In this document: positions 2,581 to 57,480 of the stretch, one piece after another
How the letters are laid out: every line of letters begins with the position of its first letter
How positions within the stretch are numbered: position 1 is the stretch's first letter
Assembly: GCA_043228905.1 (NCBI GenBank)
Contig: JBHGNT010000009.1
Location: forward strand, 18,910,001 to 18,974,000
DNA length: 64,000 bases
Reading direction: 5' to 3'
Origin: Azolla caroliniana
Lineage: Eukaryota > Plantae > Polypodiophyta
The notes under the pieces: generated by a model
The model's input: the letters and a program-made list of their open reading frames with translations, nothing else
Databases searched by the model: none
Told to the model about the DNA's origin: nothing
Translations under genes and position numbers: made by a program

Positions 2581-3930
2581 AGTGAAGAGAGTTTGTATTT
2601 TATCTTAGTGATGAGAGAGTAACAAAAACATAGGTTTTTTTTATCAAAATCATCGATGGATAAGAAAAGTGGGACGTGTTTGAAAGATTATAAAATAAAA
2701 AGAAGAAGAATAAAACATATTAGTTCTATCAAAGTAATGTAAAAGGTTATCAAAATAGAGGGTGTAGGCTCTGCTTACATAGACCAAAAATATGAGTTCT
2801 ATGTTTTGGAGGCCATGACATAAAAAATTGACCAGATACTTTGTATGAGGTGCCATACATGCAGAAAGAAAACATGTACACTATGAGATTGAGAAAAGAG
2901 TATCTAAGTCCTAGCTAGAAAAAGAGCTATGCCCAAAATTTGTCAGTTATTTCTTCATTATTTTTTTATTCCCAAAATTTGGGGCACTAGTAATTTTGGG
3001 GAGCTCGAGATTTGGGAAAAAATTGAGGGTTTGGAAGGTCTTTGCTTCCTATTATATTGGGTTTTGGGTTGATGAGGGTTAGTGGTTACATGAGGAACAA
3101 TTCGACAATATGTGGTTGGAATATTGATCTCGTCAAATTCACTCTGTCCATCCAATTCACCTCCGAATAAGATCGGTGCATTTTAGAAGTGTTATTAATT
3201 ATCTTAATATAATTAGTGCATTTTTGTTGCGTACAATTGAACATGTGAGTTTGCTGGTTTATCGAACCAGATCGATGCATTTACGATGAGTTCCTATGCA
3301 AAAAGTTGTGGTGACGTGTTTATGCTAATTGAAGGTTTGAAAAAAAAAACCTAGGAAAGTTCAAGCAAAAATTGGATGAAATTATGTATGATCAAATGAA
3401 AACTATTGTACATTCATTTGGCAAAGAGTCAAAAAATTGTAGTGAGGTGTTCATGCTAATTGGAGATCTGATAGGAAAGTTTGAGAAAGATTTAATGGAA
3501 TTATTTGTGATCAAACAAGAACTACTAGGATCGACATTCAATCGGCAGAGATAGAATTCAAACGTGCACGTATGAATCAACATTTTAGGCTCTACTATTG
3601 GGCTACTCCTACATATTGTCCAACCTTAGGAAGGTTGGACATCTTTTACTCCATACTTTAGGAACACCCATGGCAAGAGGTCTTGGGTTTAACTCCTCTC
3701 GAAAGAAGTACACCCTTTGTTATAACTTATAATTGTGGCAAGAGCATAAAAGTCTAGATTATAGTCTAACACGGTTGATCACTTCATATATACGAATGGG
3801 CATAAAAATCTATTTGTAAGAATGGGAATTCATTTAAAAGCAAGGGCATTGCTTTCATTTAGTCTATTTGCAACAATATAAGCTTGACACGCTTAAGAAT
3901 GTTATGGAGTTTTGAGACTTAAGCTTGAAG

Positions 3931-29654: not shown

Positions 29655-30490
29655 GTAGTGACATTTTGTTTTTCTAGGTACACGATTTTGGAGGTAAATT
29701 AGCAAGAGTGAGTGGATTAATGAAGCACAATTCATGTTTTTGATAAGGCTGAGTGATGGTGGGGATTGAAGCATAGTCTCTTCAGAAGACTAGACTCATT
29801 TAGTTGTTTGTATGTACCGGATTTTGGTGGCAATCAGTGAGATGTTTGATGTGGACTTGATGAAGCAGAATGTATGGTTTTGGATAAGGATGGGTGATCA
29901 GGGTGTGGGGGGCGAAGCATACTCTCATGAGGAAACAAGACTCATTGTATTGTTGTATGTGCAGGATTTTGGTGGTATTCGGCGAGATGGTTGGTGTGAA
30001 CTTAATGAACTAGAATTTATGTTTTGGATAAGGATGAGTGAAGATGAAGTATAATGTATGTTTTTCGATAAGGATGAGTGATGAGGGTGTGGGGGGCAAA
30101 GCATACTCTCATGAGGAGATGAGGAAACACAACTCATTATATTGTTGTATGTGCAGGATTTTGGTGGTGTTCAGCGAGATGGTTGATGTGAACTTAATGA
30201 AGTAGAATTTATGTTTTGGATAAGGATGGTGTGGAGGCCGAAGCATATTCTCATGAGGAGATGAGGAATTTAGACTCATTTTATTGTTTATGTGCAGGAA
30301 TTTGGTGGTAATCGGCGAGATGGTTGATGAGGACTTAACGAAGCAGGTTTTATGTTTTTGATAAGGATGAGTGATGATTTTGTGGGGGCCGAAGAATAAG
30401 CTCATGAGGAGAGGAGGAAACTTTACTTAATTTGTTGTTGTATGTACAGGAATTTGGTGATCATCCGGCAAGATGGTTGATGTGGAAAGA
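29655..30490. repeat. Degenerate tandem repeat (~145-185 bp units), continuing at ~23820-23988 on the other side of the chromovirus
   Basis: Recurrent TTTTGGATAAGGATGAGTGATG, CTCATGAGGA and GTGCAGGA..TTGGTGG..GAGATGG. Confidence 0.75.
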
Positions 30491-31339: not shown

Positions 31340-32210
31340 CATGACACTTAATTTACAACTTAGTATTGTACTCCCAGGTGCACAAGTGCACAAGTGCTAA
31401 TTAAGGTTCAAGCCTTGTAATGTATCCAATTTACAACATACTATTGTCCTCTCTGTGCACAAGTACTAATTATGGTGTAAGTCTTGTAAAGTATTTTTAA
31501 TTTATAACTAAGTATTGTCCTCAAATGTGCACAAGTACTGACTATGGTTTAATGCCTTGTAAAGTACCCTTATTTTACCACTTAGTACTATCATCCCACA
31601 TGCACGAGTATTGATTATGGTTTACAACTTAGTACTAATTTATAACTTAACATTGTCCTCTTTGGTGCATTAGTACTAATGAATATCTTAGTACTGTCCT
31701 CTCTTGTTCATTAGTACTAATTTATAACTTAGGACTGTCATCCCAGGCATGAGCACTAATTTAATACTTAGCATTGTCCTCTCTCATGCATTAGTACTAA
31801 TTAATAACTTAGTTGTATCCAACTTTGTTCATTAGTACTAATTTATAACTTAGGATTGTCCCCTCTCGTGCATTAGTACTAATTAATAACTTAGTACTGT
31901 CCAACTTTGTTCATTAAGACTAATTTATAACTTAGGACTGTCCTCTCTCATTAGTACTAATTATTAACTTAGTACTATCCAACTTTGTTCATTAGTACTA
32001 ATTTATTACTTAGGACTATCCTCTCTCGTGCATCAGTACTAATTAATAACTTAGTACTGTCCAACTTTGGTCATTAAGACTAACTTATAACTTAGGACTG
32101 TCCTCTCTCTTGCATTAGTACTAATTAATAACTTAAGACTATCCTCTCTCGTGCATTAGTACTAATTTCCAACTTAGTACTATCCTCTCTCGTGCATTAG
32201 TATTAATCAA
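31340..32210. repeat. Minisatellite of ~40-bp units built on the TTAGTACTAA palindrome; resumes at 37556-37660
   Basis: Roughly 20 copies of CATTAGTACTAATT(T/A)ATAACTTAG(T/G)ACT(G/A)TCC; interrupted by the Copia insertion. Confidence 0.85.
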
Positions 32211-33098
32211 TGTTAGGAAACAGGTCCCTCTAGATGGGAAGTGAGAAGAACAGTGTTGATGAGCAAACTCGACTGAGGTCGATAGGCCGAGGCCGAAACC
32301 GGATGACGAGTACCCGGCAACGGAAGACCCGGTGAGAACCAGATGTGGAGTACCTGGTAACGGAAGACCCGGTGAGAACCGGATGACGAGTACCCGACAA
32401 CGGAAGACCCGGTGAGAACCGGATGTGGAGTACCTGGCAACGGAAGACCCGGTGAGAACCGGATGATGAGTACCCGGCAACGGAAGACCCGGTGAGAACC
32501 GGATGTGGAGTACCTGGCAACGGAAGACCCGGTGAAAACCGGATGACGAGTACCCGGAAACGGAAGACCCGGCGACAACTGGATGTGGAGTACCCGGCAA
32601 CGGAAGACCCGATGAGAACCGGATGCTACAGGCCCGGTGAGAACCTCTCATCGGATGGAAGGGACATATATGTAAATATGTTCGAGAGAGCCCACTAGGG
32701 CTATATTTGTAAATATCCCGAAAGTCATAATAGTATAAATATGACCTAGGGCAAACTTAATAGTGAGAGAGTTATTGGTGTTAACCTCTGTACAGTGCGT
32801 AAGAGAGTGATATAGCGAAATACAAAGATTGTGTCTCTGTTGTAACCGCCTTGTGGCGAAGCGAGGGAGCAAGAGGTCGTTGCCTCTATGCCCCACTGTT
32901 GTAATCTTGATATAGTGATATTTTGCAGTCTGAGGGCTGTCGTGGTTTTTCCCAGATTTGGGTTTTCCACGTTAATATCCTGTGCATTCTTCTTTACTGT
33001 TTCGTGCTTAGATACATCTCTCCACATCCCTGTTTTTCTGTGATTGATCCGACGTCTCGGTTGTGGCCGAGCATAGCTCAGGAGGCATTTTCATATTA
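32211..33098 (+). repeat. 5' LTR (888 bp) with U3 tandem array
   Basis: TGTTAGG...CATATTA, then AAG and the PBS. Confidence 0.9.
32301..32620. repeat. 8 x 40-bp tandem repeat in LTR, alternating A/B variants
   Basis: GGATGACGAGTACCCGGCAACGGAAGACCCGGTGAGAACC alternates with GGATGTGGAGTACCTGG... Confidence 0.95.
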
Positions 33099-39797: not shown

Positions 39798-42457
39798 TGA
39801 AAAGAATTATGTGCGGAAGCTTGTAGACAAACTGGCTTAGTCGGATAACAACAGTAAATAGAAATGAAGGTTTAATGGAAGCTTAAAAATATATAAAACA
39901 CAAGAGAGACAGAGAGAGTAGAATACCATAAACTTGATTCAAACTAATAACACTTTGTACATACACTACAGAATAATTTTTATACAAGTCCTTGAAAGGA
40001 CTGACAGAAGTACTAACATGTACTTCAATGCTCATACGAGCGACTGACACTAACTCCAAGGAATATGCCTACGTACTGGGCTCGGACCGTAGGATCCAAT
40101 GGCTTACCGGTTCTCACTATTCCGTAGTACAATCTAGTTCTCCGATTTGGCTCTGGCTTATTCAGTCGATTAAGCTTGCCCGCTCAACACTCCCCTCAAG
40201 CTCAACTTGAGGTCGGATTGTTGTGTGTGTCCACCGGTCCTTTCCTCTGACTCCTCCTGGCATCTTCCTGCCTTGCTCACGCTCCTTGACCCGTTTGGTT
40301 TCGCTTCCCACGATCCGTCTGGTCTTGCGCACCTCGACCTTCTCGGTCGGCTTTTCTGCTCATAAGGCCGCTCGGTTCCTTCGGTGTCACGACTTCGGTG
40401 CTTCTCCACCCGTCGATCCCTCCATGTCGGTGTCGACTTCCGCTACTAGAGGAAGTAATAAAGGTACCCCAGGTCAAGGTTGTTAGGTACGTTAGGTACT
40501 GTATGGATACCATACGTATTTAACGTATTAATACCCATATAGTACCTCCCAATTTAAAAATACGTCAAATACGTTTTCTTAATATGTTAAATACTTATAA
40601 AATATGTAAAGTATGTAAAATACGTATTTTACGTATAGTACGTTAAATACTTCTAGAATTTGAAATTTTTTTACCTTTCTAAAAAATATCTATAATATTG
40701 TAAAAAACATCTATGTTTACACAATTTTGTGATGTACAATATAGTTCTACATCCTAAAATGCATATAAGACATTTGAACATTTCACATCCTAAAATAATT
40801 GTAGTAATATGGATGTCGACATTCCCTTATTCTATAAATCAGTGTAAGTGTGTAGATTTCTCTTTTGCGATTATCACACTCAGGACAGGTTTATGTCTTC
40901 TTTTCTCTCTTCTTCTTCTTCTTCTTCTTCTTCATCTTCTTCATCGTCGTCTCTTCTATTCTTCTTCCTTCCTTCCTTTGGCTTCTTTTTCACTAAAATC
41001 TTTATTTTTCTTTTGCTTTTTGTTAGGGTTTTACTTACATTTTCTTTATAAATACGTATTATACCTGTTTTTTTATAAATACGTTAAATACCCTATTGGA
41101 CAAATGTACATGATATTTGACTGAACAACATTGAGGTATAGTACATACTATACAAATGATGGGGTACTATACGTATTTAAACGTTAAATACGGGTACGTA
41201 AAAAACCATGCCCCAGGTCCTTCATTTCGAATGCGTCGAATAGCTGGGAGTTCACTTGGCCGATTTCAGCAAGGCCCGGTCCAGTGATGACTAGATCATC
41301 CACGTATAACAAGACACATACCGGACTTTTCGGACCTTTTCGGATGAACAACGAAGAGTCTGACTTCGAGGCCGCAAACCCCATCTTACGCAACCAATGT
41401 GTGATCCTCCAATTCCAAGCATAGGGTGCTTGCTTCAAGCTGTAAAGTGACTTCTTGAGTCAACAGACTACCGACTGAAAACCGGGGGGTTGAGGCATGT
41501 AGACCTGCTCTTCAAGATCACCTTGAAGAAACACATTCTTCACGTCCATTTGGTGAAGATGCCACCCCCTTGCTGCAACAACTACGAGCACCACACGAAC
41601 CGTCGTCATCTTTGCTACCGGAGCAAAGGTCTCATCGTAGTCGATTCCGTGGGTCTGCATGTATCTTTTGGCCACTAACTAGGCCTTGTACCGATTGATT
41701 GAACAGTTAGGATTGTACTTTACCTTGTACACCCAGTTGCAACCGATCAGTTTGCAATGTCGGGGAGGGTCAACCAAGTCCCATGTGTTGCCTGCATCTC
41801 TTCCTCCATCGTGGCATGCCAATGTGCGTCTTGTGCCGCTTCTGAGTAGCTCTTTGGCTCATGCACTTCTGCCACTTTTGTCATGTATGCATAGTGAGGC
41901 ACCATCCATACCTCTGTACGGGATTCTTCTGGTGGGTGAATCGGTGTAACTTCTCGTTAGCTGATTTCAAGGCCCTCTTGGCCAACTCAGACTTCGTTCC
42001 CAAAGGTCCATCTTCGTTCCTTCGGGAGTCAGACTCGCTCTGATCTGACTCTTCCCTGCCGGTGTCATATTCCAACATCTTCTTCTTCCCTTTCTCTTTG
42101 CGCATAAACCGTCTCTTCGGTTCCTTGTGCGGGGAAAGCACGGCTGAGCCTCCAATACTCGTTGGCTCGTCATCGGACTGGTCGGTCTGACTAAGTCGTT
42201 CGTTCATCCCACTCAATCAAAATGAAATCTGACTCTCATCTAGAGTACCGATGCCTTCTTCTTTAGCCCGGATTGTTTGCGGCTCACTGCCTCACCTTTC
42301 AGAGTCGGCTTGGAGTCAGGGGTCGGAGTTGGTAGAGAGTACAAGGATGTTGACTCATCGAACTCAACGTCTCGGCTTACTCGAATTTGTTTAGTTCGGG
42401 GGTTATAACACTTATAACCCTTCTGTTCGTGTGAGTAGCCGACTAATATGCACTTCG
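39798..42457 (-). mobile_element. Copia element, 3' half (INT end, partial RT, 3' LTR 39798-40189)
   Basis: [36 protein letters not shown]; PPT rc CTCCCCTCAAG at 40190; the LTR matches the one starting at 57028. Confidence 0.88.
40475..41210. mobile_element. Non-autonomous hAT-type element (MITE) inserted in Copia RT
   Basis: 8-bp TSD CCCCAGGT (40467-40474 and 41211-41218). Imperfect TIRs CAAGGTTGTTAGGTAC / CATGGTTTTTTACGTAC. Subterminal TACGT/ACGTA motifs. Removal restores MKDLG-YLYYFL. Confidence 0.85.
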
Positions 42458-43073
42458 ATCATCTTGAAACTTGGATTCATTTCTCGTTTCGAACATTCAC
42501 TTGTGGCATACGAGGCATCAACTGATTGATGTTGTGGGTAGAAAAAGGAAAAAAATGTATAAATACATTTTTAACACGTTCGCGTTCAGAAGTGGAAGGA
42601 TCGCGCAAAAATGGAAGGATAAGGAATATTCCTTCTAATTTTGGGGTTTAGGTACTCTATTCACAAAACATAATGATACCAGTATCACATGTTCACAAAA
42701 TACAGTTGGAAAACCTCAAAAATTCATCATTTCCTAAACTTGAAAAAACGCTAAAATTATGCTATAATCCAAATGGTACAATGCTCACTATCACCAAGAA
42801 GTCAAGAAGTAATATATTTTATAACAAACAATGTTTGTACAAAGCAATACTATTTCTAAACATAACTTTTACATCTTTCGAGTATTACAAATGGCACTCT
42901 CTTACAATAGATACCAAAATTACATTGACGAATGTAACATTTACAAAAATCACTCGTATCATGGTTCAGAGTTGCTACTATAACTAAGGTACAATGCAGA
43001 TTGTTCCTCATCATCTTCGGATGTACCTATTAAGGCATTGTCTTCATCTAAAACTAGATGTTGCAATTCCATG

Positions 43074-44534
43074 TTAGGGTGTTGACGATCTTGTTTGCCT
43101 TCGACTTGAGATCCCTTGTAGAATAGGTAATTTCTCCTTGATGATATCTATTGTAGACTTCCTGAGACGTCCAACTTTTGTTAGTGTGAAGTCGTAAACA
43201 ATAATATCTATGTCACCAATGTCAAGGCATGAAGTGCTACAAATATTTCTTTTCCTCTTTCTATTCCCCCTTGATCGTGGACATTCCATCATCTCTAATG
43301 CATACTTGTCGGTAAAGGCATTTTTTCTTTTAGTGTTGTACCAATGCACCTTTATAGACTGGATTTGGCTTTGGTTCTCATGGATCACCACATCTAAAAC
43401 CTTACCAATCCAAAATTGATGTCCCAACTCATTATCATCAGCAGGTGTAGCAATTAACATACCCACCTTCAGTTCTTGCAAGTTTCCTTGCCACCTTGTT
43501 TCTGCTATTTTCGTCAGCTTGGGTCCAACATATATGTCCCTTTGTGGTGGATGGAGCAAGCTATCATTAATCGCATTAGGTGCAAGATGAGAAGTCTGAG
43601 AATTACGACACTGTTGTATATTCCATGTGAAGGCGATTTGCACGGTCCAAGTACCAAGGACACAATTGTCAACAATATGTTCTTGATCTGTAAAGATCAC
43701 ATCCCACCATGACGTGTCTTGTTCCCCAACATACTTCTTCGCATTGTCAATGTGCTTGCGTTTTTCTTGTAGCGCTTGCATCCAAACATCCTTTTGATTA
43801 TCAACTAGTACATTGGTGACCACTTTTTTAGTCTTAATCGGCATTTGTCCTGCACCATAAACAAAAGTAGAAGGCATATGAAGTAGAAACTGACACCTGC
43901 CTTCAGGCTCCCATTCGGGGGAGGATGAATACTGCTTTGCATATAATAATGTACAACCACTATGATCATTTTTATTTATTAAGAATATGTGGTTGAAACT
44001 TATATTATTTAATGGCGCTAACACTTTGGCATTTCCCTCAGCACCATCTGAGATGTATCTCTTGAAATCATATATTTCCTTCAAGTGTTCCACGATTGGG
44101 CGTGGCATATATACATCACGAATGATGTCGAACAACTTAGGTAACGTGAAAGCATCATATCGTGATAACTGCATAGAGAAGTTACTAAACATCTGATCAC
44201 TATGGTCATGTGTGTGACCAACCAATAGAAAGTTAACTTTCACTTTCCTAAAAATTCCTTGGTTCACTAGCATACTTAGATAACCAAAGACCATAGAATT
44301 TTTGTTTTCATGAGCAATATTGTCTAGTTGAATATATAAAACCATTGGCAAAGACATAAAAACTTTTTGAATCACAGTGACTGTTAAATTAGGGTCATTG
44401 TGGACATTTGGGTGGGTAACGAAAACATGAGTCTTAACACTTCCATTATATGCTAAACAACCCACCAAGTGCATCTGCATGAGACAATCATCGTTGAATC
44501 CTTTAGGAAGACGTTTAAGATGAGGTAGACACGT
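43074..44534 (-). pseudogene. Sola1-like DDD transposase, central and C-terminal part
   Basis: LYIQLDNIAHENKN and FLLVGHTHDHSDQMFS motifs; C-terminal LKVGMLIA..FWIGKV..VHWY domain. The first ~145 aa of the listed 631-aa ORF are translated LTR. Confidence 0.8.
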
Positions 44535-45182
44535 TGTCGCGTTACTATGCGCGTGCGTGGAGAAACGAGGCGGGACCACCGGGGTCTTGAACCGAAGAGC
44601 AGGTGATAGAAGGGGAAAAGCGAAAGAGAGAGACGCCCGGTCATGTATGAGCAAAGAAACACAGGGGCGCGGCCCGTCAACACAGAAGACGCGAATGGAC
44701 ACAGAGACAGGGAGGCACAAGTGTTTGTATATTAACGAATAACAAGTACACAGCAGAACACGCGAGTGGTTACAACCGAAAGGCCGGCGAACAGATGCCG
44801 ATGCCTGTTCGTCTGCGCACAAAAAGGGGATAGGATGGAGGTGCTGCCGGAAGCACACGGGCGTTCCTCGAAGCAGCGCGAGCCTCCTGAAACCTGCAGA
44901 GAAGAGCAACAGAGAACAGACAGAGGAGAAGCATTTGGTTTTGGTCCGACAGCACTTTGTCCTCCTCAATGCGCGATCCCTTTCTCCCTGCGTCTCCCTC
45001 TCCTTTATAGCGTCAAGAAGGGAGCCGTCTCCCTCATTTACTTCCTACCTACCGAATCTAACTACCCGGATATGCCTTCGTACTTAATTCCCTATTATAT
45101 ACATTAAGGGCGCGCACACGTGAAGAGCTGGTTCATGCCTGCTATGCACCGATTGTGCCAAGGGACGGTTTTCTTCACGACA
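44535..45182 (-). repeat. 3' LTR of Gypsy
   Basis: TGTCGCG...CACGACA, adjacent to the PPT. Confidence 0.95.
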
Positions 45183-48100
45183 TCCGCCCCCACCTAACTA
45201 CGCATCCATCGGTATGCGCCAAAATTGGGTTCTGGTTAGAGAAAACTGGTCCTGGTTCCGTTTGTTCATCCATCGGTTCGTCCTCCGTTTCGGACTGTTC
45301 GTCTTCGCTGTCCAGGCCTCTTAGATCCGGTTCGTCGTCGTTGCGTTTCTTGAACGCTTTGACCCGCTTCCCTGCTACCGGCATCGCCATCCTCGTACCG
45401 TCGAGTTCCGCCAGGTGATACGTCCCGTTGTCGTTGGCGCTTGTTACCACGTAAGGCCCGAACCACCGCTTCGCAAACTTTTGTGTTGCTCGGTGCTGGT
45501 TGTCGAGGCTACTGTCGTAGACTAGCACCCAGTCGCCTTCCTCGATCTTCTTTGGTCGGAGCCGGTGCGTCCGGTCGAACCGGGCTTTGTTCTTCATCCT
45601 TGCCACCCGAAGTTTCTCTGCCGATTGTTCCACGTCCTCTGGCCTCCGCTCGAGCTGCCGTATACGCGCCACTAGCAGTTCTTCCCGACTCATTTCGTCA
45701 CTCCAGTCTACTGTCGCCCAAGAGGAGATCGTCCTTTCCATCGGCATGATCAGCTTCTGTCCGAACATGAGCTCTGACGGCATGAACCTGGTTACCGAAC
45801 TGTGCGTTGTCCGATCCGCCCACAAGGCATAGGGTAACAGTCGTGGCCAGTTCCCGACCTGTCCTTCGCACACTCAGACTAGCGCTTTGACGATTGGTCC
45901 GTGCCCGCGCTCCACCTTCCCATTTGCCTCTGGATTGTACGCTGTGGTGAGCGAGAGCTTGACCCCTAATCGGTCGAACAACTCCTCGTCCTCTTCGGCG
46001 GTCAGCCACGATCTTCCTGACGCACCCGTACCGGCATATCACGTCCTCGATCAGGAATCAACACACGGCTGCAGTCGTTTTGTTCTGTAGGGCTCGGCCT
46101 TCCACCTGGTTCGTTAGGTCCTCCCGGGCCAGCACCAGATATCGCATCTACCGTACGCCCATTGGCATCATCACCAAATCTACCATCCATTTGAAGTGGA
46201 TGGCCGGAGGGTACGTAGGGTGAAGCTCGTCCCGATGTCGGACTATGGAGTGCATCTGACAGCTCTCACAAGTTGTCACGAATTGACGCACGTCCCGGTA
46301 CAGTCCCGGCCACCAGTACTTCCCCTTTAGTTTCTCGAACGTGGCCCACGTCCCACGGTGTCCAGCCCAGGGGCTGTTGTGGTAGGCCTTCAGCAATTCC
46401 TCCCGTTCCTCCTTCATCGCCACTACTCGGAGCGGGATGCTGTTCCTCTTCTTCGGGTGCTTCCACAAGTATCCGTCTCGGAGAAAGAATCGGTACGCTT
46501 TCTTCCGGATCCGGTTGGCCTCGTCCCTTGTCCACGATGCGTCCGGCACCATTGTCCTTAAGAATCCCCCAATCTGCAGCCACTCCCCGTCGTACTTGCT
46601 CTCGTTGAAATCGTTAAGCGCCGGAGTGCTTCCCCCCTCGGTTGTTACGTAAGCCGCCTCGAAGAAGTCTACGCCGACTTCCTCGTCCTCTGAAACCATG
46701 CCGCCCTCGTCGTCGAATCGCGCCCTCGAAAGCATGTCGGCCATGGCATTGTCCTTCCCGGAAATGTGTCGTATTCCGGATCTAGGGACTTGATGTACGC
46801 TATCCACCTGAGCATTGCCAGGTCCGGGGTTGCGCATCCGGAAACCATGTCGAGAATCGGCAGGCAGTCCGTCTCGATAATCACCTCTGTCCCAATCAGA
46901 TAGCCTTTATTGGCCTTTACCGCCGAAACGATACCCCAGAGTTCGCGTTTAACCTGGGCGTATCCTCACTGCCGCTCGTTGAGGACCTTCGCGCCGAACC
47001 GGATTCGGAACCGAATGCCGTCCTCATCTTCTTGGTTGACGACCCATCCGATTCCGGTCGGACTATTATCTACCGTTATGTAGATGGGAGTGCCTTTCTC
47101 GTAGACAGCCTTTCGGAGTGCCGGAGCTGCAGCAAGAGCCTCCTTCATCTTTCGGACTGACTCCGCATGCTCGTCTCGCCACTCGAATTTTTGCCCCTTT
47201 TTCAGCAACCCGTATAGCGGCTCGGCAACGTGGGCGTAATGCGGGATCCATATGTGGTAGAGCGCGCATGCTCCCAAGAACCTCCGTACCTCTGTGACCG
47301 AGTTACAGTCGGGCTTCATAGCGGAGATGGCTTCCACCTTGGCCGGAGACGGTTTCCGGCCATATGCTCCGCATAGATGTTCGACGACCATGATCTCTGA
47401 TTGCTCGAAGGCCGATTTCTCCCCGGAGAAGGTGAGCCTCGCGTCCTCTAGCCTCTGCAGCACCCTCTCACAGTCGTCAATGTGTGTCGCCACGAATTTT
47501 CGGCCTCCGTCCGGTCCGATCGTTTCGTCCTTTTCGTCCACCGGACATCCCTTGATAGGGATGTCATCCAAGAATGGCATGGTGATGTCCGGGATACAAT
47601 CCCTCAACACCTTGTTCATCGCATTCACCATGTGGGCCACCGAGTTCGTCCCTCCTTGTGGCAGGGTACACATCCGCACTAGGCCGAGAGGAGTCCGCAT
47701 CGTCGTAATGTCTCTGCTTTCTACAACTAGTTGGAACTGATCGTACCCCAAGTACAGATCACCGACCGAGTAGATCGACCTTCCGGCGAAGACCTCCGCG
47801 AACTCGTCTATCGTTGGTCCGATTCCTGCGTTCTGAATGGTCACCCTGTTGACCGGTTGCAGGTCTTGAATGAAGCGCAACGTCCCGTTCTTCTTCGATA
47901 TGGTAAACCACCGGTTCGAGTACGGGGCACTCGACGGTTCGAGGATGCCCATATCAACTTTCTGCCTCAATAGCTCCATCAGCTCCGGGATGTGAGCTCT
48001 CGGTACCGAAATTGGTTTGAGATTCCACGGCACATGCGGTACCGTGAATATCACCATCGGCTTCACAACTGCCGGGTCTATGCACCCGATCTCTCCCGGC

Positions 48101-49627
48101 GAGAATGTGAAGGCTTTCCCGTGCCTTCCGAGCATTCTCCGAAACCGGTCTTCTTCCGCCGGCAGTAGGAACCCGCCCCCACTGATTTTGAGCTCCCGTA
48201 GCGTTCTGTCGGTGAAGGCTATGCAGGCCGGATCTCGTAAACTGGGTCCGACGCGACCCCCTTGATTCATAACTTGCTGCCCTCCGGTAAGGGTGCCGCG
48301 ACTGGCCTCACCTTCCGGTCCACAGTCTTGTACTTCGTGTTAACCCGGGCCGTCCTATCCGACTCGAGCCCTTGACTGAAGTCCGCGATGACTTCGTACA
48401 TTTCTTCGGAACAAACCGGTATCGTCCGGTCGTCTTTAAGGCCCTCTTCGACCATCCCTCGTAGTATTCCCAAGGTATCGTCGAAGGAGACCGCCTCCAC
48501 GGCTCCGTTGATTTCCTCGCTAGGCACGAGAACTCCGCGCGCCCGAAGTCGCTCTTCCGCCCTTGTCTTTTCTCGGCCTACGACGCCGACTATCGTACAC
48601 CCTCCGTTGTCGGAGAAACAAAACTTCCTACTTATGGTACAAGGTTTCTTTGATTTCGCTTCTATCGTACATTTGTGGGGTTTTCCCGGAGTGTCCGGAC
48701 TGTCGCGGCCCCACGCCTTGGCAGCCCTCTCTAAAAATCCTCTCGGTTCTCGCCACTGAGGGACTCGCGGTTTCGCTCGGGGTTGGGTCGCACCGTCAGG
48801 AACTGGACCGAATGACGCCCGTCCTGACTCTTGACCCTCGCGTAAGCCGACCCGTTGTCCAGCAGCTTGGTCTCCATTCGCGCTGCCGTAATGTACGGTT
48901 CCCCTAGTATGACCGGGTGCGAGGACGTTTCCTGCACAAAGAAGTGATGGTCTATTTCGACGTCGCCGATCTTGACTCGCACGTTTGGGCAGGCCCCGTG
49001 TAGTTCCTCGGTGGCGCGCATCGCCGCCTGTATCTTCCACCCGTGCTTAGTGTTGATCGGCCATTTCCCCATTTTGTAGAAGTCCATGGACATCAGGTTT
49101 ATTTCCGAACCGTGCTCCACCAGTGCCACCACCGGTTCCTGAACATCTCCGATCTTCACCGGGGTTTCCGTGGTCGCTCGGGCCCAGTGTGGCCTCGAAT
49201 AGTGGCTCTCCGCCCACTCGTCTTCCAGTGCCATGTCCTCTATGTGCGTCGTCCGCACTTCCACCGGCCTTTCCGGTTCTGCCTCCGTCGACAGCCTTTT
49301 CCTCTTCACCAAGTCCACGATGGAGTCATGGAACTCCTTCTTGGCGATCCTGACCACCTCCCACAATGACAGTTCCACCTTGTTGTCGAGGATTCGTTCT
49401 TCCAGGACCTTTCGTAGGTTCGTGGTCCTTTCGATCTCCGTGCCCAACCGGTATCCGCCCTTCTTGTGGCTATCCCGGGCACTGGACTCACCGGCCTCGT
49501 TCCGTTTTAGCCCGAATCGGGTTTCGTATCTCTGTGAGGGTCCGACCCCTCCGATTTTACCTACCCGTTTGTCTTCAACCAAAGCCTCATAGTTCTGGCA
49601 AGTTGCTTCGACGAAACCTGTCTTTTC

Positions 49628-50281
49628 TGTTGGGAGACAGGTCCCTCCGGATGGGAAGGGAGAAGAACAGTGCTGATGAACCGAATGAGGAGTACCCGGC
49701 TACGGAGAGCCAGATGATGCAGACCCGGTGAAGATCGGATGAGGAGTACCCGGCTACGAAGAGCCGAATGATGCAGACCCGGTGAAGACCGGATGAGGAG
49801 TACCCGGCTACGGAGAACCGGATGAAGAGACATATTCCTAAATATGTTTTCTGATAGTCCATCGAGGCTATATTTGTAAATAGCCGAAAAGTCATATTAG
49901 TATAAATATGACTTAGGGCAAACTAGTAGTTGTAGTTGTTATTTTTTCCTTGTTGGTGCAAGAAGAAGAGAGAATACGTAACGTTGTACAGAGAGAGAGA
50001 GAGAAAGAGGTCGCTGCCTCTGTTGTAACCGCCGCCTGTGGTGAAGATCGTGAGTCCGAGGTCGTTGCCTCCGTGAACTCACTGTTTTGTACATTCCTAC
50101 ATAGTGACAGTTTGCAGCCTGTGGGCTGCCGTGGTTTTTTCCCCTATTTTGGGGTTTTCCACGTAAACCTCCTGTGTATTTTCTTCTTCTTTGTGTCGCG
50201 TCTAATTTCCCGTTTTCTGTGTATCATTCTAAGCTCGGTTGTGGCTGAGCGTTGCGCATAAGGAACGGACAGTTCCCATCA
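49628..50281 (+). mobile_element. Copia solo LTR (relative of the 32211 family) inside Gypsy gag
   Basis: TGTTGGGA...TCCCATCA with TSD TTTTC; 54-bp U3 repeats; removal restores DPVEEK|TGFVEATCQNYE. Confidence 0.92.
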
Positions 50282-51552
50282 TTTTCTTCGACCGGGTCAC
50301 TCCACCCGGTTACCTCCTGGACCCGCTTCTCCGCGCGGTCCGCCTCGTCTCTCTTCAGTCGGGCACCGGCGAGGCCTTCCAGCACCGTCGGCCAGAACTC
50401 GGCTTTGCTCTCCTTCCGGGCCCCGCTGCCCCCGACCCGAATACCGGCTGACGCCGAGTAGTGGACGGTCTCCGCGTGTCGGGCTGCCGCCTCTTCCATC
50501 AGCCTTTTCATTCCTCCTCTCTCGTCATTTCGGTTCAGGGCCCTCCGGGTATTGCTGGCGTGCACCCGACCTTCCCACAGGTACACTACCCGGGTTCTCA
50601 AAGCCTCCATAAAGTCCCCGTAGTCTTTCCGGATGTGGCCGACCTCGTCGCACCACATGCACCTACTTCCTACCGAAGGTCGTTGGTCACGAGCCTGATC
50701 GCCGCCTTCCCTCCGAGCCTGGGCGATCTGGAGATCCTTTACCGCTCGGATAAACTCCTCCAGAGCTGTTCCCCCGGACGAGCCTCTGATCACGCCGGTC
50801 GAAGACGAACAGGTTTCGAGCCACTCCCGGGTCTCTTCCCTTCGCGCCTGCGGTATCGGTTCGAGCTTCGTTGCTGCGACAGGTCCCGCCTCGGTCGCCT
50901 CTGTATCAGCCCACTCCCACCAATTGTCAAAACGGCCGTAGACTCTCTTTACAGCGTCCCAGTCGGTCGTCAGCCAGTCTTTGGTTTCCAGTAAGGAGCC
51001 AACTTGCCCCCGATCCCGTGCGTCAACCGATTTGACAAACAGTAGGACACGACTTGTGTCCAGAACGGTCCGATCGAGCGCCGAAAGGCGCGCAAAGCGT
51101 TCCTCAAACTCCCGGAGGAGTACCGACGCATTTCTTCCTTTGTTGGGGGACTCCACCCACTCCATGAAGCTCCGCTTCGAAAGTCGAAGCGCGTCATCCA
51201 ACCCGTATTTCTCCAGGAGCCGTCCTTCGAACTCTTCCCAGGTCCGGCTCTCCGCCCGGACCTCGAGCACCTCCGCATGGATGCCCGGCATCGCCACTCG
51301 AGGGAATCCGGCAAGACGCCTCTCTTCCGGAATATCCCTCATCAACATCTCCGCCCGGTAGGACACCAAATAACTCGTGGCATCCTTTCCACTGAACCGG
51401 CCGATCATACCGATCAATAGCCCTGTCAAGGGCGCCGGTGCCGTCGCGCGCGCTCACTATCCGGTCCACGGCCGAAGCCATGGCCTCTGCAAGATCCGAC
51501 CCCCTCATCTTCTACTCCTCTGCCACCTGTTTCACGTCGAGTTCACGAAATA

Positions 51553-52200
51553 TGTCGCGTTACTATGCGCGTGCGTGGAGAAACGAGGCGGGACCACCGG
51601 GGTCTTGAACCGAAGAGCAGGTGATAGAAGGGGAAAAGAGAAAGAGAGAGACGCCCGATCACGTATGAGCAAAGAAACACAGGGGCGCGGCCCGTCAACA
51701 CAGAAGACGCGAATGGACACAGAGACAGGGAGGCACAAGTGTTTGTATATTAACGAATAACAAGTACACAGCAGAACACGCGAGCGGTTACAACCGAACA
51801 GGCCGGCGAACAGATGTCAATGCCTGTTCGTCTGCGCACAAAAAGGGGATAGGATGGAGGTGCTGCTGAAGCACATGGGCGTTCCTCGAAGCAGCGCGAG
51901 CCTCCCGAAACCTGCAGAGAAGAGCAACAGAGAACAGATAGAGGAGAAGCGTTCGATTCCGGTCCGACAACACTGCGTCCTCCTCAATGCGCAATCCCTT
52001 TCTCCCTGCGTCTCCCTCTCCTTTATAGCGTCAAGAAGGGAGCCGTCTCCCTCATTTACTTCCTACCTACCGAATCTAACTACCCGGATATGCCTTCATA
52101 CTTAATTCCCTATTATATACATTAAGGGCGCGCACACGTGAAGAGCCGGTTCACGCCTGCTATGCACCGATTGCGCCAAGGGACGGTTTTCTTCACGACA
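51553..52200 (-). repeat. 5' LTR of Gypsy
   Basis: Close match to 44535-45182, followed by TSD ACGT. Confidence 0.95.
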
Positions 52201-52365
52201 ACGTCTTCTTTTGGTCCATTCCATCTATCATGAAACACATGTAGTTAGTTGGATTGTTTATCTACTTTTCCCTGTGGTGCATAGCTCCTTTTCACTCTAT
52301 TGCTTGGGCATCTCGGTGATCTTGTAACAATTTCTTATTTAGCTCCTTCTCAGTCGTTGTCTCTG
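52201..52365 (-). pseudogene. Upstream part of the Sola1-like transposase (first catalytic Asp region)
   Basis: Minus strand reads LLQDHRDAQAIE*..NYMCFMIDGMDQKKT and joins CLPHLKRLPK across the Gypsy TSD. Confidence 0.85.
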
Positions 52366-52661
52366 TACGCCGTATCGAGTTGAGGCTCCTAACGCCAGAA
52401 CTCGATACGCCTTATCGATTTGTGACCCCCAACTCGATGCGCCGTATCGATTTGAGGCTCCTAACGCCAGAACTCGATATGCCGTATCGAGTTGTGACCC
52501 CCAACTCGATACGCCGTATCGATTTGAGGCTCCCAACTCGATACGCCGTATCGATTTGAGGCTCCCAACTCGATATGCCGTATCGATTTGAGGCTCCCAA
52601 CTCGATACGCCGTATCGATTTGAGGCTCCTAACACCATAACTCGATACGCCGTATCGAGTT
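52366..52661. repeat. Array of nine 23-bp palindromes (AACTCGATACG-C-CGTATCGAGTT) at 32- or 40-bp period
   Basis: Copies at 52366 (partial), 52399, 52431, 52471, 52503, 52535, 52567, 52599 and 52639. Confidence 0.95.
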
Positions 52662-53386
52662 GAGGGTCACAGAGACACTCGGGCAGTTAGACCACACTAT
52701 TAATGTACATTACACCATCAGAAACACGAAAGAAAACATTAGGCTAAAAATAAGAAGTAAAAACATGTTTAGAAATTCCAAATTAAGGTCCAAATACAGT
52801 AGAAATTGGCCTACAATATGAGATTTGGATACTGATGGGGATGTCAAAAGTCTAGTAATTTGAGGGTTTAGAGAACTTAGAGACGTTAGATATATATTTA
52901 TCTTGCCTTGTAATCAAGTTCCTAGGTTTCTAATCCTGTTTCCCCCATCCTACAAGTCCTTTACTCTAATATGGTTATTGTAACACTGAAATGAGGCCAG
53001 AAAATTACTGGATTGCTAATTTGGCACACCATACGACCTTCATTTACTAGGAATGTGCATACTATAAGACTGAAGTGAGGCCAAAACATTACCATACCAC
53101 CTTACTACCTTACTACCATTGCCAGTTAGGAGGATATAGGTTTATGTTTCACAATTCCGTTATCTGAACTCCCTTTCCAGTGCCTCTTACTAGGTTTTCG
53201 ACCTTATTATTACACGCTTTAAGTAGTTCCCTTACACAAGTTGTTAGGCAAGAGCTTAATGAGGCCAAACTATATTTTGAATTCTCATTTTCCAAACCTT
53301 ACTATCAAGATTACAATACATTATCATTTGAGAGAATGTAGGTTTAGGTTCACTGTTCTCTTATTTCATTTAGGTCGACTGATCCT

Positions 53387-54253
53387 ATGGAGGAGAGGCC
53401 ACTTAAAAGAATTAGGATTAAGTATCAAAGCTCTCCTCTAGAGACAACAAAGATTTCTGTTGTCACGTATCCGCAAAAGGGAAAGAAACTCGTTTTTGAG
53501 GATGAAGTCGTGAGGCAGTCGTCTGACGAAGTTAGTTAGAAGACATTTATCACGGCTGGAGGAGGTGAAGACCAACTGGACAGAGACTTAACTGGACACA
53601 AGTGGGCATTGCAATATGCTGACTCGAAAAAGAAGGTAGTACTCTTAGTTTCCAAACTGGCTGGACGTCGGATGCTTGCCCAAGATCGGTCATTTAGCTA
53701 TGGCAAAATTTTGTGGCTTAACTATGAAGATTCAGACTCAACTAATTTGATTGTGTGAGTCAACTGTACAAAAGGAGTTCGTAAGATGATCGTCTCCGAA
53801 GACTACTTGTTGAAGGATTCATGCGGGCCAGAATCCTTCCGGAATGCTATTGAGACAAGTACCAACCTGATAACAACACTGAGGCCATACATTGAAGGCC
53901 ATGTTAATTTGAAGTCAGCCTCTTTATCGCCTGTTAAAGCACCAATAAAGAAATCTGTTGTGCAGTCTAGGCCTCAAAAAAAGAAGGTGACAAGAATGTC
54001 ATATTTTGAGTCATCGAGTTCAACAGAAGATGATGAGGCTCAATCTACACCAAGAGCAGAGCTTGCGTCTGGCGTGTTGTCATCAGAACAAAATAAAATA
54101 AGAGGGGACATCATCCATAGAAAGCTTGTGTCGAAAGGGCAAGTTTTTAACCTTTCGATAACCCATATTCATCACCCCCCTCTAGATGAGAATACAGGAC
54201 GTCGTCCTTTGGAGATCAGAGCACCACATAAATTGCACGTCCAAAATTTATAG
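53387..54253 (+). pseudogene. Disrupted second gene inside the TIR element, divergent from the transposase
   Basis: ATG at 53387 after a TTTAG acceptor-like site; MEERPLKRIRIK (NLS-like); stops, then a 155-aa frame ending HHPPLDENTGRRPLEIRAPHKLHVQNL*. Confidence 0.55.
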
Positions 54254-55159
54254 TGGGACTGCAGGAGGCATTTGTAGATATTGGGGAGTATTTATTTTAT
54301 TGGAGGGGATTATACAACAAAAATCATGTTTCTATGGTTGATGATTGTCTGGACTGGATGTACAGAGGGCTATCAATGTGTGTTCTATATAGATTATGAG
54401 TACTTCATTTGTATATATGTGTTTAACTTCTTGATTTAGTGTTAATTTGTAGACAATCAAATGAAAATTTTAATACATGCTTCAACGTTACTACTGGAAT
54501 GTTATCTCTAGTTTGGCACCGAAAACTTTAGCACTGCCTATGCCTTAATAATTGTCATATATGTTTTGGGTATATTCTTTTATGTCTAATGTCATGTAAA
54601 CTAATAGTTATGAGTACGCTTTCTACTTCTAATTTTCATGTGTTGTCATGAACATATAGATTTGGTATTATATCCTAATGATCTTTACTAAGGATTAATT
54701 GCGGTGTATTGTATTCAATAATATGTAAATATCAATTTCTCAAATAACATATACACCTCTCTTGGAAAGTTTAACCATTGTAAACCTCTGCACTTTACAT
54801 CTCACGAAAATGGAATCCCTGTTTGTAAATAATTAATTTGTATCAAATGAATGCGCGATAAACCCCAACCCTAAATTTGCAAACATTGCAAAAATAAATC
54901 TCATACATTTATATTTTCTCCAATAAATAGCATGATCTCTAGGTATAGAGAATCTGCATCGGATTAATAAATCAATAAATTCACCATCTTTGGTTGAGCA
55001 TTTGATACTAGTGCATGTCCGATTTCACAACAGGCTAAAATTGTGTGACTACAAAGGGAATCTAAAAGTGGAATGCGCGATCCTTCCACTTCTGAACGCG
55101 AACGTGTTTTTTTTCCTTTTTCTTTTTATGAATAAACTTGTAATCTGGCTGATTTTGCA

Positions 55160-57480
55160 ATTAGCCCCACGGTCGTCCGGACCGCTTCAGCCTAGTAGAA
55201 CTTGGGCATGCTCTTCTCTTCCAACATTTCCCCTGCCACCTCCACAATAGACCGGTTCTTCCTTTCGTCCACCCCGTTTTGTTCCGTTGTGTATTTGCAA
55301 CTGAATTCTCTCTGAATTCCCTTATGTTGCAAATAACTGTTGAATTGGCCGGAAAAGTATTGTTTTCCACCATCCAACAACAGGAACTTCATCTTCCTCT
55401 TCGTTTCCCGTTCGATAAGACTTTGTAGGTACCGGAAACAGTCGAAAACTTCTCTTTTCCTTTCGATTAGGTAGATCCATGTGTGCTGGTTGTAGTCGTC
55501 GATGAAGAAGACGAAAGATCGGCTCCCGCCAAGACTAACGTTCTGTGCCGGTCTCGGTTTCTTTCAGTGGGGAACAGAAGCCAGTGTTGTTCCCCAGCTG
55601 GCAGGCTTCACAAATTTGGGCCTTCTGGCCATTAAACTTCGGCAATCTGAAAACAACCTATTTCGTCTACGGGTCTTGAAGGCTCTGGAAGTTGACGTGG
55701 CCGATCCACTTGTGCCATAAGTCGATATCCTACTCAACCTTCTGTCCTTTGGTCAATAGAGCTGTGTCGACGTCATTAGTATCGAGGATGAACATCCTCG
55801 CGTCCTGACACCCTTGCGCGATGATCCGGCCCTCTTCCTCAATGAAACACCCAAGATGCGTAAACCAGACCTGCATTCCTTGGTCGATGATCTGCCTGAC
55901 TGACACTAGGTTCTTCGTGATTGTCGGGACATGAAGCACGGTCATAAGCTTCCCTTGTTGTCCGACATGACTCATGGGAACTTCTCCTACATATGCACTA
56001 TTGGGTGAGGACTGTCGTCTCCGGTTTCGACAAATCCCGGTTTCTCCAGAAACGAGAACCACTCTTTGTGGCTCGTCATGTGTTTAGATGCTCCAAAGTC
56101 AATGTACCACACTTCCTCCAATCTGCAAGTGGTCTTCTTCATTGAGTTCGCCTTGTGCTTCATCACGAAGGCTGGCCCTTTTCCGGTCTTTCCAAATCCG
56201 GATCCAGAACTGTTGTCGGCACTATCTTTGTGCCTTTAGTGCTACTCTTGTCGGCCGCTTGCATTGCGTGCCAACCCACCTTGTCCTCCATGCCCACGGG
56301 GCTGATCTGCCTCTATGTATAGCATCCGACTATCCGATTGAGTGGTCCTCGACCACTTGCATGGTTTTCTTCGACAATGAGCATCGATTGCAGGTCAAAG
56401 AAGGACAATGGCTTCTCCTGGGTGCAAATTGTCGTCCGGATTGGCCCTGTACTGGTGTGTTAGACCATCGAGGCAGATCTGGACCATCTGTTCTTCGTCC
56501 ACCTTCACGTTGATGGACCTGAGCACATCGTAGATCTCCTTGATCTTGGTGGTGTAGTCGATGACCGACATGTCCCATTGCCGGATAATGTTGAGCTCTT
56601 GTCAGAGCTGCAACTTCCAAGCCGTGGTACTTGCGGCGAAAATCTTTCGAAGATTTTCCCAGGCCTGCTTTGGTGACGTTGCTTCTCTAATGTAGCCGAG
56701 CATCTGTTCATGCACACAGGACGTGAGGCAGTACAACACTCTACTGGCTCCTTGCTCCCATACCGGAAAGTCCTTGTGTGCCAAATCCGGCGCTGCTTCA
56801 TTTGCTCCTTCCACGTAGCCCAATTATCCATGCCTCAGAAGGTATTAGTGCATTTTATACGACCAAGACACATAGTTGCTCTGGTCGAGCTTTTTTGTAG
56901 GAAGCGAGCTCGCCATGCTTCTGTCCATGTCTTTCTTCTCTCTTCTGTTCCTTACCAGTGATTAGGGTTTGTCCGTTTCGAGCAGTGGTTGGCAGCAGAG
57001 GTTCTGAACCCTCTCGTTGTGATACCATGAAAAGAATTACATGTAGAAGCTTGTAGACAAACCGGCTCAGCCAGATAACAACAGTAAATACAAATGACGG
57101 TTTAATGGAAGCTTAAGAATACACAGTACACAAGAGAGATAGAGAGAGTAGAATACCATAAACTTGATTCAAAGTATTAACACTATGTACATACAAATGT
57201 CCTACAGAATACGTTTTATACAAGTCCTTAAAAGGACTAACAGAAGTACTGACATGTACTGCAATGCTCATACGAACGACTAACACTAACTCCAAAGAAT
57301 ATGCCTACGTATTGGGCTTGGACCGTAGGCTCCAACGGCCTACCGGTTCTCACTATTCTGGAGTACAATTTGGTTCTCCGGTCTGGCTCTTGGTACCGGA
57401 TACCGATATATCCAGACACCTATCCGGTTCTCTATTCCGGATACCGATCCAGCTTTGGCTTATTTAGCTGATCCGGATCC
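55160..57480 (-). mobile_element. Copia element, 5' half (5' LTR from 57028, PBS, gag, PR, INT start); probably the same element as 39798-42457
   Basis: PBS rc ending GATACCA at 57027; gag KLDQSNYVSW; EQNGVDERKNR; the LTR TGAAAAGAATTA..GCTTGTAGACAAAC matches 39798. Confidence 0.85.

What the first reader, a model, noticed from the sequence alone, without database searches (positions are those of the whole stretch)
42573..55108. Candidate new system: Sola-like transposon with a divergent second gene and a central palindrome array
Seen: perfect 35-bp TIRs; a minus-strand DDD transposase (IDGMDQ / QLDN..ENKN / GHTHD..DQ); nine 23-bp palindromes; a plus-strand disrupted gene with an NLS-like start. 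From unverified recall, HHPP...PLEIR.PH..HVQNL resembles the start of fern hypothetical proteins that continue into a ParB/Srx-like (GGxH) domain; this copy stops before that motif. Sola elements are usually described as single-gene. Hypothesis: an accessory ParB-like DNA-binding protein acts on a parS-like array for anti-silencing, targeting or partitioning.
Basis: partly seen in the sequence, partly recalled or inferred. Interest (0 to 1): 0.8.

Follow-up and report, generated by a model that had tools for sequence, protein, structure and literature searches.

The report
Plant transposon carrying ParB-methylase gene
This is a broken copy of a many-copy plant jumping gene (likely from a fern) whose full-length relatives carry a second gene for a predicted bacterial-style DNA-binding methylase plus a row of evenly spaced palindromes that this protein likely binds to mark its own DNA, a design already described in algae.

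Summary
It has 35-bp TIRs, a 4-bp TSD and a nested 7.7-kb LTR retroelement. It also has two deletions (about 2.1 and 2.7 kb); the second junction occurs in 11 copies. Full-length copies (about 9 kb, several hundred in the genome) carry a Sola-type DDD transposase. Facing away from it is a predicted six-exon gene: PH-like domain, ParB/Srx fold, helical domain and a beta-class N6/N4 DNA methyltransferase (DIPY, FSGTGT). The gene is under strong purifying selection. The palindromes lie in its predicted first intron, keep the core CGATRC-N3-GYATCG across diverged families and are spaced near whole helical turns, which fits a protein dimer binding duplex DNA. The ParB GxxR arginine is absent, so a CTP clamp is unlikely. 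Array CpGs decay like exon CpGs, so lasting protection from silencing is not shown. The kind is in print: Sola1-1_Ec32 in Ectocarpus, and ParB genes beside inverted-repeat arrays in Bostrychia. This scan has noted the family many times in this genome and in others. Verdict: a new land-plant member of a known kind, well suited to testing.

The parts
42569..42572 (.). Left target-site duplication TTTT (right copy 55109-55112)
   Evidence: 4-bp TSD in 32 of 36 two-TIR copies
42573..42607 (+). Left TIR, 5'-AAC terminus
43074..44534 (-). 3' part of the Sola-type DDD transposase (second and third Asp motifs, C-terminal domain), open frame
44535..52200 (-). Nested LTR retroelement (Gypsy-like by gene order), LTRs 44535-45182 and 51553-52200, TSD ACGT; not part of the family
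52205..52365 (-). Remnant of the transposase middle (first Asp, IDGMDQ), with two stops; cut at deletion junction 1
52365..52366 (.). Deletion junction 1 (about 2.1 kb lost: transposase N-terminus, the predicted divergent promoters, predicted ORF2 exon 1, part of the array)
   Evidence: against L004; 6 genome matches with up to 3 mismatches
52366..52661 (.). Array of 23-bp palindromes (8 whole, 1 cut), periods 32 and 40; lies in the predicted first intron of ORF2
53374..54250 (+). Remnant of predicted ORF2 exon 2: basic start, PH-like domain (about 53579-53911), first 58 or so residues of the ParB/Srx fold (about 54077-54250); two internal stops
54250..54251 (.). Deletion junction 2 (about 2.7 kb lost: rest of ParB, helical domain, whole methyltransferase)
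   Evidence: 11 genome matches with up to 3 mismatches
55074..55108 (-). Right TIR

Best explanation
The window holds a doubly deleted, retroelement-interrupted copy of a cut-and-paste Sola-type transposon whose full-length copies carry a conserved second gene predicted to encode a ParB-fold DNA amino-methyltransferase, which likely binds as a dimer to the phased palindromes in its own predicted first intron and would methylate the element's DNA, probably at adenine N6, to help keep the two divergent genes active. Shown: anatomy, copy numbers, TSD, co-occurrence, purifying selection, intact methyltransferase motifs, conservation and spacing of the palindrome. Predicted: splicing, folds, homodimer. 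Inferred, with my odds: binding to the array about 0.7; catalytic activity on the element about 0.55; benefit through anti-silencing or activation about 0.4. The window's derivative has neither gene whole and would have moved using proteins supplied in trans.
For: Family size: 842 TIR matches with up to 2 mismatches, 2,228 exact matches to a 20-base palindrome pattern, 383 matches to the motif-IV coding stretch; reversed controls 0. Of 23 two-TIR copies among 40 loci picked by the TIR alone, 22 have the array, 19 the ParB part and 20 the motif X-I exon. A five-exon model on L007 gives a 962-aa open frame with four GT/AG introns, mostly kept in both subfamilies; 10 of 42 copies have no internal stop. 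A phase-matched first exon (usually MSSK...AG|GT) lies upstream of the array in 22 of 24 A and 11 of 15 B copies. 3 of 28 A copies have both genes unbroken. A versus B majority codons: pN 0.054-0.072 and pS 0.78-0.88 from the ParB to the methyltransferase region, against pN 0.082 and pS 0.70 in the transposase core. ADIPYG is kept in 20 of 24 A and 7 of 13 B copies, LFSGTGTT in 19 of 24 and 5 of 13. Pfam N6_N4_Mtase E 1.1e-8 to 3.6e-10; the Ginkgo homologue hits CcrM, M.MboIIA and M.RsrI. Fold of ParB plus helical part: pLDDT 84.7; Foldseek ParB/Noc E about 1e-5; PadC Z 9.4 (rmsd 3.1, 99 aligned), KorB Z 8.6 (rmsd 13.6, 170 aligned). Homodimer score 0.55, best of 3 controls 0.00, at least 37% contact agreement, pLDDT at least 73; the mark was reached by 21 of 30 solved pairs and 0 of 23 single chains in microbes and by 17 of 29 and 0 of 30 in eukaryotes, but by only 1 of 7 with no older solved relative, so it may be memory of ParB dimers. 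The same 23-mer is kept between A and B although spacers are unrelated. In metagenome relatives both arms change together around CGATRC-N3-GYATCG, and periods cluster at 31-34, 39-43, 49-54 and 60-63 bp (R 0.645 at 10.4 bp, 47 votes, 0 of 5,000 uniform draws). The amplified derivative keeps 1-9 units, while 2 of 2 array-less deletion junctions tested are single-copy. A Riccia transposase homologue and a ParB-methyltransferase have consecutive locus tags.
Against: No binding, methylation or expression was measured. Copies are clearly subject to host CG and CHG methylation decay (A: CG 2.36%, CHG 2.76%, A/T 0.56%; B: 13.0%, 12.3%, 0.9%). Array CpGs decay at about the same rate (33 of 1,440 = 2.3% in A; 255 of 2,248 = 11.3% in B, summed by hand, truncated by a 3-mismatch filter), so no lasting protection is seen. 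Motif IV is DIPY, a variant of DPPY, and the target base and sequence are unknown. The helical domain matches ParB, SopB and KorB DNA-binding domains only weakly alone (Z 3.6-4.8). No residue change that tracks palindrome variants was evident by eye, and one family mixes GATAC and GATGC arms. The phase votes are not independent (shared descent, neighbouring values). The window's array carries a local GATTT variant in 6 of 8 units, so arrays can re-expand in dead copies. Only 2 array-less junctions were tested.
Confidence: 0.5

Rival explanations
1. The protein binds the array as an operator and mainly dampens or times its own and the transposase's transcription, as KorB does; methylation is a feedback switch and not a defence against silencing.
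For: The array lies in predicted intron 1, about 55 bp after the exon-1 donor and close to both predicted promoters; KorB is among the top folds; no protection from CpG decay.
Against: The derivative kept array units after losing the predicted promoters and still amplified to about 11 copies; pure autoregulation explains poorly why a whole methyltransferase is as constrained as the transposase core.
Confidence: 0.22
2. The array is a cis-acting transposition enhancer: the ParB-fold dimer bends or bridges DNA to help the transposase pair the ends or choose targets.
For: Helical phasing; the amplified derivative keeps units, array-less deletions are single-copy; the TIR does not contain the motif.
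Against: Some derivative copies have a single unit (L017, L019); the array is about 4-5 kb from either end; the methyltransferase is unexplained.
Confidence: 0.13
3. True parS/ParB behaviour: CTP-dependent loading and sliding that spreads the enzyme along the element or biases its inheritance.
For: ParB fold, ParB-like predicted dimer and palindromic sites.
Against: The Box II GxxR arginine, whose loss abolishes nucleotide binding in the controls of bioRxiv 2025.10.10.680097, is absent in 51 of 51 rows (GGSHS, GGNHS and similar); no ParA partner in the element.
Confidence: 0.06
4. The palindromes act as hairpins in pre-mRNA or single-stranded DNA and are not protein sites on duplex DNA.
For: Both arms change together and the central 3 bases are free; intronic position.
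Against: A fixed core sequence and spacing near whole helical turns are not expected of independent hairpins.
Confidence: 0.05
5. ORF2 is a neutral passenger and the array is a slippage product.
For: Unit number varies from 2 to over 20 and arrays expand in dead copies.
Against: pN about 0.06 at saturated pS; same palindrome with unrelated spacers; similar pairing in Riccia and Ectocarpus.
Confidence: 0.02

Closest known systems
Sola1-1_Ec32 of Ectocarpus (PMC12477816; passages and supplement rows seen)
   Same: Sola-type element, 4-bp TSD, termini starting AAC (AACCG there, AACAC here), gene on the strand opposite the transposase that fuses a ParB-like domain to an N4/N6 DNA methyltransferase; the authors propose self-binding and self-modification.
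   Different: Brown alga, 21.5 kb, 282-bp imperfect TIR, 1,104-aa protein, 2 intact copies; the word palindrome does not occur in the main text. Here: land plant, about 9 kb, 35-bp TIR, predicted 974-aa protein with a PH-like domain, many young copies, a defined phased palindrome. The sequences were not compared directly.
Plavaka (EnSpm) elements of Bostrychia, PAG2 and PAG3 (bioRxiv 10.1101/2025.02.11.637652; passages seen; supplements not seen)
   Same: Transposon-borne ParB-like gene beside tandem arrays of inverted repeats, and a PF01555 methylase in the same element; same hypothesis.
   Different: Other transposase superfamily; ParB is fused to a 2OG oxygenase and the methylase to SET, on separate genes.
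VANDAL/VANC of Arabidopsis (PMC5735166; abstract and one results section read)
   Same: Plant DNA transposon with an accessory protein that binds dense arrays of a short motif in its non-coding regions; a model for how this may work.
   Different: MULE family (recalled), non-palindromic 9-mer, no ParB fold or methyltransferase reported in what I read; VANC is shown to remove methylation, whereas nothing is shown here.
Beta-class amino-methyltransferases (CcrM, M.MboIIA, M.RsrI) and the 4mC enzymes MpDN4MT1 of Marchantia (bioRxiv 10.1101/2021.02.12.428880; passages)
   Same: Motif order IV, then X, then I; PF01555.
   Different: DIPY here, not the TSPPY of the 4mC enzymes, which points to N6-adenine but does not prove it; fused to ParB and carried by a transposon, not a host gene.
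Bacterial ParB/Noc/KorB CTPases
   Same: ParB/Srx fold followed by a helical domain; predicted dimer; palindromic sites.
   Different: No GxxR arginine, no ParA; C-terminal methyltransferase.

Membership tests
Sola superfamily | 4-bp target-site duplication (PMC10741241) | tested here: met
   32 of 36 two-TIR copies
Sola superfamily | DDD transposase between TIRs | tested here: met
   Three Asp motifs in a 927-aa frame, DUF7869; their catalytic role is inferred
Sola1 subgroup | Match to the RNase_H_Sola1 profile (PMC5751038 supplement) | tested here: inconclusive
   By eye only, 2 of about 5 parts read: states 86-101 (DncagqNknsfvlaal) fit DNTARENKNSTVFGYL, but the near-invariant E of state 53 has no evident counterpart. 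The profile was not run; Bao et al. 2009 is not held.
Sola1-1_Ec32-type elements | Opposite-strand gene fusing ParB-like and N4/N6 methyltransferase domains; AAC termini | tested here: met
   Full-length copies; the window copy itself has lost most of this gene
Sola1-1_Ec32-type elements | Sequence homology to the Ectocarpus proteins | not testable with these tools
Beta-class N6/N4 DNA methyltransferase | Catalytic motif IV before motifs X and I | tested here: met
   ADIPYG at 679, NPYQKP at 815, LDLFSG at 839 of the spliced model; PF01555
Beta-class N6/N4 DNA methyltransferase | Methyl transfer to DNA; identity of the base | not testable with these tools
   Needs an assay or modification-aware reads
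ParB/Srx fold | Structural match of the domain | tested here: met
   Foldseek E about 1e-5; PadC Z 9.4, rmsd 3.1, 99 aligned
Canonical ParB CTPase clamp | Box II GxxR arginine | tested here: not met
   0 of 51 rows have R in the GGxHx motif
Canonical ParB CTPase clamp | HTH domain that reads a palindrome | tested here: inconclusive
   Helical domain Z 3.6-4.8 to KorB, SopB and ParB DNA-binding domains
VANDAL/VANC anti-silencing systems | Accessory protein causes loss of 5mC on its own family | tested here: inconclusive
   Indirect only: array CpGs decay like exon CpGs; no methylome available

The most novel reading that the evidence does not exclude
Land plants and their algal relatives (homologues in Chara, Riccia, ferns and Ginkgo) carry a lineage of transposons with their own self-addressed epigenetic system: a catalytically intact ParB-fold adenine methyltransferase is loaded on a helically phased, parS-like array and writes 6mA on its own element, beside the host's 5mC system. 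This would be a sequence-specific source of plant 6mA and a programmable writer.
Probability: 0.3. Interest if true: 0.8.

Novelty: new member of a known kind. Interest (0 to 1): 0.5.

Why it matters
Two algal papers propose that transposon-borne ParB-methylases bind and modify their own elements, without naming a site or testing it in the passages I read. This family supplies what a test needs: unbroken young genes, a 23-bp candidate site whose core and phasing are conserved across diverged families, and natural deletion derivatives. If active, it would show a plant transposon writing a bacterial-type DNA mark. My searches for a land-plant description found none, but the library lacks most subscription journals, and Iyer et al. 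2011, which is cited for algal cases, is not held.

Tried and rejected
Homologue search among longer proteins (957-2,730 aa): no hit, weak evidence. Pfam finds no ParB family in the exon, and the profile finds no PDB sequence; only folding showed ParB. The Atlas gave DUF3723 (0.96, a lead only). No RNA holder was listed, so splicing and expression were not tested and read laying was not used. The PH-like domain's best match, the SANTA domain (Z 6.3, rmsd 4.6, 101 aligned), is below the level to trust. An early guess that the host is a moss was dropped: the closest named homologues are from the fern Ceratopteris (transposase 64%; ParB part 72%); the host was not determined. The idea that the array is a separate inserted element was rejected because it sits at the same place in full-length copies. 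dN/dS could not be computed for most domains because synonymous sites are saturated, so pN and pS are given. Iyer et al. 2016 (passages and section 8) describes other ParB-linked methyltransferase clades, not this one in the parts read. PMC12344493 (passages) does not mention ParB. Bao 2009 and Iyer 2011 are not held. Supplements of the bioRxiv papers were not seen and may describe the repeats in more detail.
Full report
Observation. The TIRs, transposase motifs, palindromes and broken plus-strand gene are at the stated places. The array has 8 whole units and one cut unit, far above chance (9 against 0.015 in 200 shuffles). Of the 12,536 bases, 7,666 are a nested LTR retroelement (44535-52200); without it the element is 4,866 bp.

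The family. The genome (523 Mb) has 842 TIR matches, 2,228 exact matches to a 20-base palindrome pattern and 383 matches to the methyltransferase motif-IV stretch. I fetched 80 stretches: 20 (by TIR or ORF2 hits), 40 (by the left TIR alone, taken in list order from the 100 places shown of 842) and 20 (relatives of the window's subfamily). Termini are 5'-AAC...GTT-3', with a 4-bp TSD in 32 of 36 two-TIR copies. There is a young subfamily A (24 copies, 0.7-3.2% from their majority sequence) and an older subfamily B (13 copies, 3.3-5.3%) to which the window belongs. All 26 two-TIR copies of 8.5 kb or more that are not derivatives hold both transposase halves, at least 2 palindromes, the ParB part and the motif X-I exon. 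Of the 23 two-TIR copies among the 40 loci chosen by TIR alone, 22 have the array, 19 the ParB part and 20 the motif X-I exon.

The window copy. Against L004 it lacks about 2.1 kb at 52365/52366, where a transposase codon is joined to the middle of a palindrome, and about 2.7 kb at 54250/54251, right after HVQNL. The second junction occurs in 11 places and the first in at least 6, so this is an amplified non-autonomous derivative. Two array-less deletion junctions tested were single-copy.

The second gene. On L007 five exons with GT/AG introns give a 962-aa open frame; the splice sites are mostly kept in A and B, and 10 of 42 copies have no internal stop (only loci with all parts within 3.7 kb were scored). 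A short phase-matched exon upstream of the array (22 of 24 A, 11 of 15 B; not recovered in most of the 11 diverged metagenome loci tried) places the array in intron 1 and makes the protein about 974 aa. Splicing is predicted, not observed. Three of 28 A copies have both genes unbroken. Domains: a PH-like fold (66-180), a ParB/Srx fold and helical domain, and a beta-class N6/N4 methyltransferase. Between subfamilies, ParB to methyltransferase regions have pN 0.054-0.072 at pS 0.78-0.88, as constrained as the transposase core (pN 0.082, pS 0.70). The ParB Box II arginine is missing in all 51 aligned rows. A homodimer of the ParB-helical part scored 0.55 against a best control of 0.00, with at least 37% contact agreement and pLDDT at least 73; calibration counts are given in the For line, and the pass may come from memory of solved ParB dimers.

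Relatives. A profile search found 704 representatives at E up to 0.001. Of 41 longer ones scanned, 9 have PF01555; named ones are from Ginkgo, Adiantum, Riccia and Chara. Motif IV reads DIPY, DIPH, DAPY, DFPY, DLPY or DPPY. Riccia R1sor_010795 (transposase) and R1sor_010796 (ParB-methyltransferase) have consecutive tags on a contig of the same length; their orientation and TIRs were not checked. The closest named homologues are from Ceratopteris, so the host is likely a fern.

The array. A and B share AACTCGATACG-C-CGTATCGAGTT but have unrelated spacers: periods 51/52 in A, and 32, 40, 61 in B. In 80 metagenome loci (the best 80 of 140), diverged families keep CGATRC-N3-GYATCG with both arms changing together and a free centre. 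Periods of 25-70 bp cluster near 3, 4, 5 and 6 helical turns (47 votes, one per arm type and period; R 0.645 at 10.4 bp; 0 of 5,000 uniform draws). The votes share ancestry, so the true significance is lower. Against protection: CG and CHG transitions are 4 to 14 times the A/T rate in exons, and array CpGs decay about as fast as exon CpGs (2.3% versus 2.36% in A; 11.3% versus 13.0% in B; array figures summed by hand).

Mechanism. Most likely the protein dimerises through its ParB fold, binds the palindromes on one face of the helix and positions the methyltransferase on the element near its two promoters. DIPY points to adenine N6 (established convention, recalled; the Marchantia 4mC enzymes have TSPPY). 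Whether the result is activation, autoregulation or help in transposition is open; I give activation or anti-silencing the lead at about 0.4 for that step.

Prior art. Sola1-1_Ec32 of Ectocarpus has the same gene pair, a 4-bp TSD and AAC termini (PMC12477816; passages and supplement rows). Bostrychia Plavaka elements have a ParB gene beside inverted-repeat arrays and a PF01555 gene (bioRxiv 2025.02.11.637652; passages). VANDAL/VANC is the tested plant analogue (PMC5735166; abstract and one section). The Sola definition is from PMC10741241 (passages); the Sola1 profile was compared only by eye, with a partial fit (one Sola2 part was uninformative). Searches for a land-plant account found none. 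Earlier notes of this scan describe the same family repeatedly in this genome and in others; they gave me the Ectocarpus paper and the intron-1 lead, both of which I checked.

Verdict. Real, conserved and testable; a new land-plant member of a kind already proposed in algae. The window copy itself is a dead derivative. Interest 0.5.

Noticed in passing
window 42540-42572 and 55113-55123: With the element and one TSD removed, the insertion site is a perfect 20-bp-arm A/T-rich hairpin inside a broken Copia-like integrase region; it may be an older footprint.
   Followed up: partly
window 44535-52200: Nested LTR retroelement with a 4-bp TSD (ACGT), LTRs 96% identical, frames broken, and a 54-bp tandem repeat at 49680-49825; a related 40-bp repeat lies at 32297-32625.
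   Followed up: partly
window 42240-42500 and 55160-56240: Copia-like retroelement (rve, E 4.6e-8) into which the transposon inserted.
   Followed up: no
window about 43120-43520, minus strand: Conserved C-terminal transposase domain (KVGMLIA...FWIGKV...VHWY) that looks like a chromatin-reader barrel; not identified.
   Followed up: partly
L007 5210-5554 (residues 66-180 of the long exon): The PH-like domain's best structural match is the SANTA domain of the centromere protein M18BP1 (Z 6.3); weak.
   Followed up: no
L095 4750-5650: A second palindrome array of another family (AATCCGATGC and AATTCGATGC arms), including a perfect inverted repeat of about 108 bp, lies downstream of ORF2; probably a nested related element.
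   Followed up: no
L032 6500-9940: 3.4-kb diverged two-TIR element with an array but no ParB or methyltransferase match; perhaps a derivative of a third subfamily.
   Followed up: no
L054 and L056: Identical flanks on both sides (TSD GACA), so probably one insertion duplicated with its surroundings; counted as two in the tallies.
   Followed up: no
L007 about 3010-3200, minus strand: The transposase N-terminus is built from repeats of about 12 residues (SIEEYCLS).
   Followed up: no
P0087: A homologue of the helical part is fused to a SAM (sterile alpha motif) domain.
   Followed up: no
window 31386-32211 and 29717-30486: Tandem arrays of 41-82 bp and about 141-192 bp units, outside the finding.
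   Followed up: no
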